Below, one piece after another: positions 18,201 through 21,200 of a DNA stretch of 64,000 bases (position 1 is its first letter; each line of letters begins with the position of its first letter). The stretch is taken from the NCBI RefSeq assembly GCF_024502345.1, contig NZ_JALDNN010000001.1. One strand, 5' to 3'. The DNA is from Escherichia coli. GTDB lineage: Bacteria; Pseudomonadota; Gammaproteobacteria; Enterobacterales; Enterobacteriaceae. Position numbers: made by a program.

Positions 18201-21200
18201 GTCTATCAATCTGCATTCTCACCGAACTTACTCGAACGCCCGCGTCTGGAAAGCCATCTACAAAAACTCCTGACCGATGCCGTGAAAATGCGTGGGCTGA
18301 TTGCGCCCGCCAGCAAAGAAACCCGTATTCCAAAATCGATATATGAAGGTATCCAGACCATTAATCGCAATCTGGTTTGTATGCTGGAGTTGCAAATCAA
18401 TGCATACTGGGCCACGCGCCCCAGCCATTTCGTGTTATTGAACGCGCAAAAACTTCGTGATACCCAGCATATGATGCAGCAAATACTGCTGAGCCTTGTT
18501 CATGCGCTGTACGAAGGTAATCCGCAGCCGGTTTTTGCCAATACGGAAAAATTGAACGATGCTGTGGAAGAGCTGCGTCAGTTGCTGAATAACCACCATG
18601 ACCTGAAGGTTGTGGAAACACCAATCTATGGTTATGTGTGGCTGAACATGGAAACGGCACATCAGCTTGAGTTGCTATCGAATCTGATTTGCCGGGCCTT
18701 GCGCAAATAATTCCTGAACTTCAGAATCATCTTGCTGCTGCTTCGATTCAGCAAGGATAAAGGGTATGATAGTGAAAAGGGATAAAAGCATTGTCATCTG
18801 CGGCAGCTATGAGTAATGTTGGCCCTAACGAATAGCGGTTGCTTAAACGAATCCGACTCTCACATTATCAGGGGTATAAAAATGGAAACTACCAAGCCTT
18901 CATTCCAGGACGTACTGGAATTTGTTCGTCTGTTCCGTCGTAAGAACAAACTGCAACGTGAAATTCAGGACGTTGAGAAAAAGATCCGTGACAACCAGAA
19001 GCGCGTCCTGTTGCTGGACAACCTGAGCGATTACATCAAGCCAGGGATGAGCGTTGAAGCAATCCAGGGCATCATCGCCAGCATGAAAGGTGACTATGAA
19101 GATCGCGTTGACGATTACATCATCAAAAATGCCGAGCTCTCCAAAGAACGCCGCGATATCTCCAAAAAGCTGAAAGCTATGGGCGAAATGAAAAACGGCG
19201 AAGCGAAGTAATTCCCGTTTTATTCAATGAGGGTTGCCCGGCAACCCTCATTGCTCATTGATTCTTATTTGTGTATCACCGTCATCATTCTCATCTGAGA
19301 ACCAATCGAAATTAACAACAGCCTTCTTCTGTATGCAGCAAGGCAAAAAGTTCTGTAACTCCATTGTTATTAACTGCACTGGTTACTAACACGTTGTGCG
19401 CTCCAGCTTCCCGTAACCAACTTTTCACCAAAGATATTTGTTCCATGCTGGCTAAATCTGCTTTGGTTACTACTCCAATGACCGGGTGATTCATGGCCCG
19501 GTAGGGCGTTTTTACCTCTAATTCCTGCTTCAGCGCTGAGATTCCTGCTTGTTGCCGGAAAAGCAGGCACCTGCCGTCTGAACGGTATCGATCCGGAAGC
19601 GTATCTGCGCCATATTCTGAGCATACTGCCGGAATGGCCCTCCAACCGTGTTGACGAACTCCTGCCATGGAACGTAGTTCTCACCAATAAATAAGCGTCA
19701 ATACGGTGCTCCGTTGACGCTTACTTTAATCCGTTTTCTGAGCTTAGATTTTTCTGTTCCTACCCAGACCGTGGATTTGGAATTCATTTTTTGTCAGGTC
19801 AATGCTAATCGTTAAAACGGCCATAACGCACCTCCACTGGAAGGTTTATCAGTAATATCCTACCGTTGCTTCATGGTCGGGGCGTCCATTCCATTATTAT
19901 CGGTTTTCCTTTCTGTTTATAAATGAAAACGCCAGCTGTATTCAGGCTGGCGTCAGGGGAAATGAAGCCTGTTGAGTGAGATTCACCGGTTCTGGTGCAG
20001 AAGCTGCAGATGGCGCAGGGTAAGGACATCTTCTCTTGCCTGCTTAATACAGGACAACAGTGCTGTTTCTGTGGTTAATGGCACTATACCCTGCATCACT
20101 GCATTGTCTTACAGCAACTGGTGAGGGCTGGCATAAGTTGCCGGTGTTTCGGTAGAGTCACGGTCATCCACCACGCGGAGTGAATAACCGTTTTCAGCGG
20201 CCTTATTAATCAGTTCAGTGATATTAACACCATCAATGTCAACGACAATGTGCCCCATATCCAGCGCCTGTACGTTAACGCTGTCGGCTTCCAGTGTCAT
20301 CATTTCGCCTCCGGATACTTACCCAGGGTAATGTTATTTACCGTTCTGTAATTGTCGCGGGTCATCAGGCCGGTCGCCCTGCGAGCCCGGAGGATACCCG
20401 CTTACGCGAGAGCAATAAGTGGCTGGCCACCATTCTCGATACAAAACTCTGCTGAATAGCAGCGATTTTCCCAGCGTGGTGCGTCTTTTGCATTTTACTG
20501 GTTCTGAGTTATCAATTATCTGTTCACTAATGACTACTCTAAAAAGTTGTATCAATTTAAGTGATATAGGGAGTCTGGAGATTCACCCTTTTTGGTGATG
20601 AAGTTAACAATACCGCCAATTGCCTGTGAACCGTACAGTACGGAATATGGACCTTTCACTACCTCAACACGCTCCAGCGCAGACTCATCTATCAACAGTC
20701 CCACACCATAATTATCTCCGGCGCGCTGATAAGTTACCTCCTGACCATCAATGAGAATTAAAACACGGGAGGATGCTTCGCCACGAATGCGGATTTGTTT
20801 ACGGCCTGCCAAGGAGTTGTCTGTTATCTCTACTCCGGGGATGTCCTGCAAATTATCGGCTATGGAGGCATTGGTGGAGTTCTGCAATGTTTGTTGGTCA
20901 ATAACCTGTATAGTCGCCGGGCTTTCCCAAAGGTTGCTTGCCGAACGATTCGTGGTCACGACGAGCGTCTCTTCGTTGCTGATTTTTGTTTCTGAAGAAG
21001 TTGCGGTTGCAGTAGAAACTATCCCAGAAATGCATAATGACAGAGTGGAAAGGATATAAATTCGACAAGGTATATTATATAACATTTCATCCCTCATTAA
21101 TACAAAGTACAAATGATTGCTGTAATGATAATTATTTTCATTTATGTTCTCATATATCTATAATTATTGTCATCTTCATAAATTGTAAATATCAAACATT

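What the first reader, a model, noticed from the sequence alone, without database searches (positions are those of the whole stretch)
19312..19694. yoeF-like ORF is a chimera overlapping an IS66-family transposase 3' remnant in antisense
The + strand at 19575-19694 encodes a typical IS66-family transposase C-terminus with no upstream transposase body. The 118-aa minus-strand ORF called here uses the antisense of that fragment for its N-terminal half and an EutP/PduV-like C-terminal segment for the rest. The ORF is therefore probably an annotation artefact built from two unrelated gene fragments.
Basis: partly seen in the sequence, partly recalled or inferred. Interest (0 to 1): 0.25.

Follow-up and report, generated by a model that had tools for sequence, protein, structure and literature searches.

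The report
yoeF: chimeric ORF over gene debris
The 118-codon "yoeF" reading frame is an accidental open frame running across three pieces of dead DNA in E. coli (the tail of a lost pduV gene, a 71-base spacer, and the last 159 bases of an IS66 insertion sequence read backwards), and current E. coli annotation already largely reflects this.

Summary
The window is E. coli chromosome, and the site is K-12's yoeF/yoeD locus at the edge of cryptic prophage CP4-44 (99.6% identical).

The minus-strand ORF 19312-19668 crosses three unrelated segments:
- **19312-19494:** codons 88-147 of pduV. They are 97% identical to the intact 147-aa pduV that sits beside tmaR in strains that keep the pdu operon.
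- **19495-19565:** a 71-bp spacer that is neither pduV nor IS66. Its origin was not found.
- **19566-19724:** the last 159 bp of an ISEc23-like IS66 element, comprising 42 tnpC codons, the stop codon and the terminal inverted repeat. It is 99.4% identical to plasmid copies.

So only codons 1-34 of the ORF (29%, not half) are antisense IS66.

The IS66 had inserted into an IS110-family relic, whose stub survives at 19725-~19881. A deletion of about 3.7 kb then made the 19565|19566 joint.

No full-length homologue exists outside this E. coli locus. The N-terminal peptide also turns up alone, as an antisense ORF in other IS66 copies.

K-12 RefSeq already annotates yoeD as a pseudogene overlapping yoeF. 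NCBI's PGAP annotation pipeline (used for the other strains) calls only the 60-aa PduV tail.

This is already known and of low interest.

The parts
18882..19211 (+). tmaR (yeeX). An intact flanking gene, convergent with the pduV remnant; listed for context only.
   Evidence: K-12 annotation mapped onto the window (window = L001 + 16199). ORF seen.
19226..19252 (.). Perfect 27-bp palindrome AATGAGGGTTGCC-C-GGCAACCCTCATT, lying between the convergent tmaR and pduV' stop codons. It is probably a shared bidirectional terminator stem. That role is inferred: the simple terminator scan did not call it, because no T-run follows.
   Evidence: Sequence read directly. Self-inverted BLAST match at 19225-19253. 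No call in the scan.
19312..19494 (-). pduV 3' remnant: codons 88-147 plus the stop codon of a EutP/PduV-family GTPase gene. The P-loop (GPSQCGKT, residues 8-15 of the intact protein) and the DTPGE motif are missing. PGAP annotates this stretch as a 60-aa 'EutP/PduV family microcompartment system protein'.
   Evidence: 97% DNA identity up to 19494 with strain DEF10, where a 147-aa pduV and the whole pdu operon lie next to tmaR. Pfam PF10662 matches only profile positions 86-142. PGAP CDS.
19495..19565 (.). 71-bp spacer that is neither pduV nor IS66. It supplies codons 35-58 of the ORF. It is the first 71 bp of a ~175-bp stretch of unassigned DNA which, in other strains, separates the pduV break from an IS110-family relic. 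K-12 annotation places the CP4-44 boundary at its first base.
   Evidence: Single copy per genome, in 4183 of 5426 complete E. coli genomes. Not found in the DEF10 pdu-cob region. It continues into L003 4367-4468 and L012. CP4-44 feature boundary.
19566..19724 (+). IS66-family (ISEc23-like) right-end remnant. It holds the last 42 codons plus the stop of tnpC (19566-19694, which is K-12 pseudogene yoeD) and the terminal inverted repeat (19697-19724, ending GCTTAC). These are the last 159 bp of an element that is 2532 bp long when intact.
   Evidence: The intact ISEc23 copy is L007 1128-3659, with the 8-bp target duplication ACATAAAA.
19312..19668 (-). The 118-aa 'yoeF' ORF. It is an accidental open frame spanning the three segments above; its ATG at 19668-19666 lies inside the antisense strand of the tnpC fragment.
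   Evidence: K-12 CDS b4538 maps exactly here. Modularity of the homologues.
19725..19881 (-). 5' stub of an IS110-family pseudo-element, into which the IS66 had inserted. The transposase N-terminus MAVLTISIDLTKNEFQIHGLGRNRK is read from the ATG at 19824.
   Evidence: Collinear with L003 5678-5834 and L012. The L003 relic is ~58% identical at protein level to an intact Photobacterium IS110 transposase (E=1e-58), and the window keeps residues 1-25. PGAP 'IS110 family transposase, frameshifted'.

Best explanation
The locus is a scar, not a gene.

The ancestral arrangement is still present in strains such as DEF10. In it, tmaR faces the last gene of a complete pdu (propanediol utilisation) operon, pduV, and cobUST follows. 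In the lineage of this window, the operon and the first 87 codons of pduV were replaced by a CP4-44-type island. That made the joint at 19494|19495.

The island carried an already decayed IS110-family element. An ISEc23-like IS66 element inserted into that relic's 5' part; its right end is at 19724. A single deletion then removed about 2.37 kb of the IS66 and about 1.3 kb of the IS110 relic and spacer, about 3.7 kb in all. That made the joint at 19565|19566.

By chance, the minus strand stays free of stop codons from an ATG inside the antisense of the tnpC stub, through the 71-bp spacer, and into the true pduV frame. The result is a 118-codon ORF that early K-12 annotation named yoeF.

The predicted product lacks the P-loop and switch regions of the GTPase, so it cannot work as PduV. 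Most likely it is not a functional protein at all.

Shown here: the segment boundaries, their homologies and the order of events. Inferred: that the product has no function.
For: Segment boundaries and identities:
- pduV homology ends at 19494.
- IS66 homology is exactly 19566-19724.
- Pfam hits are confined to the respective parts.

Ancestral and intermediate states exist in other genomes:
- Full pdu operon with 147-aa pduV beside tmaR.
- The pre-IS66 state, with the IS110 relic uninterrupted, in 639 genomes and in contig L012.
- The final configuration in 3186 of 5426 complete genomes, including K-12, BL21, Nissle 1917 and O157:H7.

The intact ISEc23 is 2532 bp with an 8-bp target duplication, which gives the size of the deletion.

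Modularity of the ORF:
- Full-length homologues come only from this locus.
- The N-terminal 34 aa recur alone in antisense ORFs of other IS66 copies.
- Where a different sequence abuts the spacer, other strains have different N-termini: a 121-aa ORF in Ec-042-T20, and a DUF987 fusion in P0013.

No convincing promoter lies upstream of the ATG. One promoter-like site was found in 1 kb against 1.5 expected by chance, and it lies ~230 nt away.

Annotation agrees: the yoeD pseudogene overlaps yoeF, the CP4-44 boundary is at the pduV break, and PGAP calls only the 60-aa tail.
Against: - The ORF is intact and near-identical in thousands of genomes, and K-12 RefSeq still lists it as a CDS ('putative uncharacterized protein YoeF'). 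E. coli diversity is too low for that conservation to mean selection.
- My pN/pS counts on the 60 pduV codons range from about 0.3 to above 1, on 4-18 differences per pair. That is too few to prove neutrality.
- No expression data (Ribo-seq, proteomics, transcription start sites) were available to me.
- The origin of the 71-bp spacer is unresolved.
Confidence: 0.93

Rival explanations
1. yoeF is a real, translated chimeric gene: a newly born small protein that fuses a novel N-terminus (antisense IS66 plus spacer) to the C-terminal lobe of PduV, and is kept because it does something.
For: The ORF is open in the majority configuration, present in 3186 of 5426 genomes. Protein clusters with hundreds of identical members exist (P0001 with 562, P0003 with 116). 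K-12 RefSeq retains it as a CDS.
Against: - The N-terminal module is a generic antisense ORF found in unrelated IS66 copies.
- The variants seen are mostly nonsynonymous: R38W in K-12, and D22Y and P25S in P0001.
- Strains with other joints have other N-termini or none.
- No promoter signal above chance.
- The fragment lacks all of the nucleotide-binding motifs except the TKAD motif.
- PGAP does not call it.
Confidence: 0.04
2. Only the 60-aa PduV C-terminal tail (19494-19312, starting at the native Met88) is expressed, and it has a residual role. This is the PGAP gene model.
For: PGAP annotates it as an intact CDS in most strains. At least ~160 nt of the pduV 3' end is kept in 5421 of 5426 genomes, even though the joints differ.
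Against: - A 60-aa piece of a ~147-aa small GTPase without the P-loop is unlikely to fold or bind nucleotide.
- The rest of the pdu microcompartment operon is absent from these strains.
- In strain EC9 the corresponding frame has an early stop and PGAP marks it as a pseudogene.
- Retention is more simply explained by its position next to tmaR and the shared terminator palindrome.
Confidence: 0.03
3. The IS66 stub is still biologically active, for example as a transposase substrate end or as the source of an outward promoter or antisense RNA.
For: The terminal inverted repeat is intact and identical to that of live ISEc23 copies.
Against: - Only one end is present. No left inverted repeat was found anywhere in the 64-kb window.
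- tnpA, tnpB and 94% of the element are gone.
- No Rfam family hit and no promoter signal above chance.
Confidence: 0.01

Closest known systems
E. coli K-12 yoeF (b4538) and yoeD (b4642) at the tmaR-proximal edge of cryptic prophage CP4-44
   Same: Position, flanks (dacD-sbmC-yeeA-tmaR on one side, yeeW on the other) and sequence all match: 99.6% identity over 751 bp. yoeF maps to 19312-19668 (-), yoeD to 19566-19694 (+), and the CP4-44 boundary to 19495.
   Different: Only point differences, such as R38 here against W38 in K-12. Beyond yeeW the island differs: collinearity with K-12 ends at 20396, and the island remnant is only ~3 kb in this window.
PduV (EutP/PduV family small GTPase, Pfam PF10662) of the propanediol-utilisation microcompartment operon
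   Same: Residues 59-118 of the ORF are orthologous to residues 88-147 of the intact E. coli PduV at the same chromosomal position.
   Different: The N-terminal 87 residues, which include the P-loop, are missing, and the pdu operon is absent. This is a fragment, not a family member in any functional sense.
ISEc23 / IS66-family insertion sequences (tnpA-tnpB-tnpC, 5'-GTAAGCG terminal repeats, 8-bp target duplication)
   Same: The last 159 bp are 96.9-99.4% identical to live copies, including the TnpC C-terminal domain (PF13817) and the right terminal repeat.
   Different: 94% of the element is deleted: tnpA, tnpB, the DDE core of tnpC and the left end. It cannot transpose.
Spurious antisense ORFs called inside IS66 tnpC genes
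   Same: Database proteins P0067, P0071, P0080 and P0092 start with the same 'MAGVRQHGWRAIPAV(C/R)SEYGADTLPDRYRSDG' peptide.
   Different: In those copies the frame continues through antisense tnpC. Here the deletion joint redirects it into the spacer and the pduV frame.

Membership tests
IS66-family insertion sequence | TnpC C-terminal domain (Pfam DDE_Tnp_IS66_C) | tested here: met
   E=8.9e-16, 58 bits against a cut-off of 30, profile positions 4-39 of 39.
IS66-family insertion sequence | Complete tnpA-tnpB-tnpC gene set with the DDE catalytic core | tested here: not met
   Homology to ISEc23 starts only at 19566. Everything upstream is unrelated. An intact copy is 2532 bp.
IS66-family insertion sequence | Two terminal inverted repeats (5'-GTAAGCG...) flanked by an 8-bp target duplication | tested here: not met
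   The right repeat is present at 19697-19724. No left-repeat-like copy was found in the window at up to 6 mismatches. The target duplication cannot be assessed because the left flank is deleted.
EutP/PduV family GTPase (PF10662) | Full-length match that includes the P-loop (G1) and the DxxG (G3) motif | tested here: not met
   Only profile positions 86-142 of 143 match. The intact orthologue has GPSQCGKT at residues 8-15 and DTPGE at 42-46, both upstream of the break.
EutP/PduV family GTPase (PF10662) | Encoded within a microcompartment (pdu or eut) operon | tested here: not met
   The window has no pdu genes next to it: tmaR lies on one side and island debris, then cobU, on the other. The orthologous site in DEF10 does have pduA-V.
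K-12 yoeF/yoeD pseudogene locus | Same sequence, same flanks and same junctions as NC_000913.3 2078549-2078931 | tested here: met
   99.6% identity and exact coordinate correspondence of yoeF, yoeD and the CP4-44 boundary.
IS110-family insertion sequence (neighbouring stub at 19725-19881) | DEDD-type transposase gene | tested here: not met
   Only the first ~25-33 codons remain in the window. Even the longer copy in L003 is frameshifted.

The most novel reading that the evidence does not exclude
The chimeric ORF could be a genuinely translated, recently born protein. It would have arisen when a deletion placed an antisense-IS66 start codon in frame with the C-terminal lobe of a dead GTPase gene, and it would be kept in ~59% of E. 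coli because it has gained some function.
Probability: 0.04. Interest if true: 0.4.

Novelty: already known. Interest (0 to 1): 0.07.

Why it matters
It matters little biologically. The locus is a tidy, datable example of how insertion-sequence traffic and deletions leave layered scars at an island boundary, and of how such scars create plausible-looking ORFs.

The practical value is in annotation hygiene. The 118-aa YoeF model in K-12, and the many 'MAGVRQHGWRAIPAV...' antisense-IS66 proteins in sequence databases, should be treated as non-genes. The 60-aa 'EutP/PduV family microcompartment system protein' that PGAP calls should be flagged as a pseudogene fragment.

The nested joints (19494|19495, 19565|19566 and 19724|19725) could also serve as lineage markers for E. 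coli.

Tried and rejected
**Origin of the 71-bp spacer: not found.**
- It is absent from the DEF10 pdu-cob region.
- It has no second copy in E. coli genomes.
- It lies outside the region shared with an intact IS110 relative, where similarity begins only at L003 4469.
- An exact-word scan of 100,044 species genomes returned only two contigs, both E. coli DNA binned into metagenome-assembled genomes of other taxa.

**First idea for the IS110 element's limits: rejected.** I initially took the second copy in strain WP7-S17-ESBL-04 (H76/L009) as defining the ends of the IS110 element. That copy is itself cut by other insertion sequences, inside the transposase reading frame.

**Searches that found nothing.**
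- An Rfam scan of 18700-20400 at E ≤ 1 gave no hit.
- The promoter and terminator scan gave nothing above chance.

**Underpowered test.** pN/pS on the pduV tail rests on only 4-18 differences per pair. It is suggestive of relaxed constraint but not conclusive.

**Literature.** Seven papers mention yoeF. The two I opened use it only as a table entry.

**Derivation of this allele from the simple pdu deletion: rejected.** I considered whether the window-type allele derives from the simple pdu-deletion allele of strain EC9. It does not, because the window keeps DNA on both sides that EC9 lacks.

Full report
**What the window is.** The region around the finding is E. coli chromosome. Window 16200-20396 is collinear with K-12 MG1655 at 98.5% identity (dacD, sbmC, yeeA, tmaR, yoeF, yoeD, yeeW). 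Window 19200-19950 is 99.6% identical to NC_000913.3 2078293-2079043, and 99.9% identical to strains such as BL21 and Nissle 1917. With window = L001 + 16199, the K-12 features map as follows:
- CDS yoeF (b4538, 118 aa) maps exactly to 19312-19668 on the minus strand.
- Pseudogene yoeD (b4642) maps to 19566-19694 on the plus strand.
- The annotated end of cryptic prophage CP4-44 maps to 19495.

In most other strains PGAP does not call the 118-aa ORF. It calls a 60-aa 'EutP/PduV family microcompartment system protein' (19312-19494) and a 'transposase domain-containing protein, missing N-terminus' (19557-19694).

**Checking the observation.**
- The plus-strand frame ending at 19692-19694 reads GTCRLNGIDPEAYLRHILSILPEWPSNRVDELLPWNVVLTNK*. 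It hits Pfam DDE_Tnp_IS66_C at E=8.9e-16.
- DNA identity to live IS66-family copies is 99.4% (plasmid pEC0585-1) and 96.9% (an intact ISEc23 on pS10EC_A). It covers exactly 19566-19724 and collapses on both sides.
- The fragment extends past the stop codon to the terminal inverted repeat ...GTCAATACGGTGCTCCGTTGACGCTTAC, which ends at 19724.
- The intact ISEc23 copy runs from L007 1128 (GTAAGCGTAAAC...) to 3659. It is 2532 bp long and has the 8-bp target duplication ACATAAAA. The window therefore keeps only the last 159 bp (6%).
- The minus-strand 118-aa ORF is real as an ORF. It matches Pfam PduV-EutP only at residues 57-112, which correspond to profile positions 86-142 of 143 (E=5.9e-13).

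**Anatomy: three segments, not two.** Aligning the window with other E. coli alleles resolves the ORF into three parts.
- *pduV tail.* From the stop codon up to 19494 the sequence is 97% identical to strain DEF10. There a 147-aa pduV is the last gene of a complete pdu operon (pduA-V, pduF, pocR), lying between tmaR and cobUST. The break falls at Met88 of PduV. The P-loop (GPSQCGKT, residues 8-15) and DTPGE (42-46) are lost, and only the TKAD-containing C-terminal lobe remains.
- *Spacer.* Positions 19495-19565 (71 bp) match neither pduV nor IS66. They occur once per genome in 4183 of 5426 complete genomes, and they are absent from the DEF10 pdu-cob region.
- *IS66 stub.* Positions 19566-19724.

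In ORF terms, codons 1-34 are antisense tnpC, codons 35-58 are spacer, and codons 59-118 are PduV.

**How the joints arose.** Strain Ec-042-T20 (L003) and contig L012 show the state before the IS66 arrived. The order there is:
1. the pduV tail;
2. the same spacer, continuing for ~175 bp;
3. a frameshifted IS110-family element (~58% protein identity to an intact Photobacterium IS110 transposase, E=1e-58);
4. the sequence found at window 19725 onward.

In the window, 1311 bp of that stretch (L003 4367-5677) is replaced by the 159-bp IS66 end. Window 19725-19881 is the 5' stub of the IS110 relic, and its transposase start (MAVLTISIDLTKNEFQIHGLGRNRK) reads backwards from 19824.

The simplest history has two steps. 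An ISEc23-like element inserted into the IS110 relic, and one deletion of about 3.7 kb then removed the left 2373 bp of the IS66 together with about 1.3 kb of relic and spacer. Genome counts fit this ordering. The pre-IS66 state is in 639 genomes. The final state is in 3186 genomes. Full-length pduV or other truncations account for most of the remainder.

- All hits covering at least 92% of the query are at least 88% identical, so they are the same locus. The one 60%-identical full-coverage hit (P0038) looks like a frameshift-ridden assembly of the same locus.
- Hits with 70-80% coverage share the spacer and the PduV tail but have other N-termini. Examples are the 121-aa ORF of Ec-042-T20, whose N-terminus comes from the DNA that follows the spacer in that strain, and P0013, which is fused to a DUF987 gene.
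- Intact 147-aa PduV proteins align only to the C-terminal half.
- A set of proteins without any PduV domain (P0067, P0071, P0080, P0092) begin with the same MAGVRQHGWRAIPAV... peptide and then diverge. These are antisense ORFs in other IS66 copies.

Each module of YoeF therefore exists independently, and the combination exists only where this deletion joint exists. The promoter scan found one promoter-like site in 1 kb (1.5 expected by chance), about 230 nt from the ATG. Rfam found nothing. Amino-acid variants among alleles are common relative to the few synonymous changes, but the counts are too small for a firm pN/pS. Taken together, this is an accidental ORF over three pieces of debris. 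I put 0.93 on that reading.

**What remains open.** The provenance of the 71-bp spacer is unknown. K-12 annotation treats it as the first bases of CP4-44. No expression data could be examined here.

**Comparison with what is known, and novelty.** This is the K-12 yoeF/yoeD locus. The yoeD pseudogene, the CP4-44 boundary and the PGAP gene models already encode the essential conclusion. The two papers I opened use yoeF only as a table entry. What this work adds is the exact three-part dissection and the IS110-then-IS66-then-deletion history. Verdict: already known, and of low interest.

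Noticed in passing
window 19495-19565 (continues in L003 4367-4468): A 71-bp spacer between the pduV break and the IS66 stub. It has no detectable relative other than this same locus. It is single-copy, present in 4183 of 5426 E. coli genomes, and its origin is unknown; it may be the terminus of the CP4-44-type island.
   Followed up: partly
window 19725-19881; L003 ~4469-5834; L012: A decayed IS110-family element, frameshifted in every copy examined, lies beside yeeW. The IS66 inserted into it. The window keeps only the 5' stub with the first ~25 codons of the transposase.
   Followed up: yes
window ~19472-19494 (pduV codons ~88-95): At least three different truncation joints of pduV in different E. 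coli lineages fall within ~25 bp of each other. The island joint is at 19494. The clean pdu-deletion joint of strain EC9 is at ~19482-19488, with 7-bp microhomology to a site upstream of cobU. A joint to a TonB-receptor fragment is at ~19472 in strain OkiPb01679. Whether this clustering reflects a hotspot, constraint from neighbouring tmaR, or serial derivation is unexplained.
   Followed up: partly
window 19983-22756: The CP4-44-type island is reduced to about 3 kb of fragments here. They are: a DUF957 fragment, yeeW (20109-20303), a cbtA 3' fragment, IS2/IS3-type debris, a TonB-dependent receptor plug fragment (ORF 20552-21112), an IS4-family fragment and a cobalamin-biosynthesis gene fragment. 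Then comes cobU (22757-23302). Collinearity with K-12 ends at 20396, and only 7 complete genomes cover at least 80% of 19300-22700 in one place.
   Followed up: partly
window 19226-19252: A perfect 27-bp palindrome lies between the convergent tmaR and pduV' stop codons. It is probably a shared terminator stem, but the simple terminator scan did not call it.
   Followed up: no
L012 (JAJXBQ010000329.1) and L013 (JADFIX010000334.1): Two contigs that carry this E. coli locus are deposited in metagenome-assembled genomes labelled Segatella copri and Planctomycetota. L012 is plain E. coli sequence. L013 is 100% K-12 for 405 bp and then switches, in the middle of the spacer (window 19536), to DNA with no E. 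coli match. These look like binning contamination and an assembly chimera respectively.
   Followed up: partly
protein database hits P0067, P0071, P0080, P0092: Antisense ORFs inside IS66 tnpC genes, starting MAGVRQHGWRAIPAV..., are deposited as proteins of 93-127 aa from many contigs. They are probably spurious gene calls that pollute protein databases.
   Followed up: no
window 8540-8663, 10960-11034, 26189-26261, 28598-28670, 30419-30491, 46124-46196, 47188-47274, 59063-59152, 35860-36628: Other features in the window from Rfam and BLAST: the his operon leader, sRNA STnc240, five tRNA genes, sRNA rseX, and an IS1 copy at 35860-36628. The tRNA-Asn gene of locus L005 matches the window at three of the tRNA sites (28556-28697, 30395-30498, 46110-46220). 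All are ordinary for this E. coli region.
   Followed up: no
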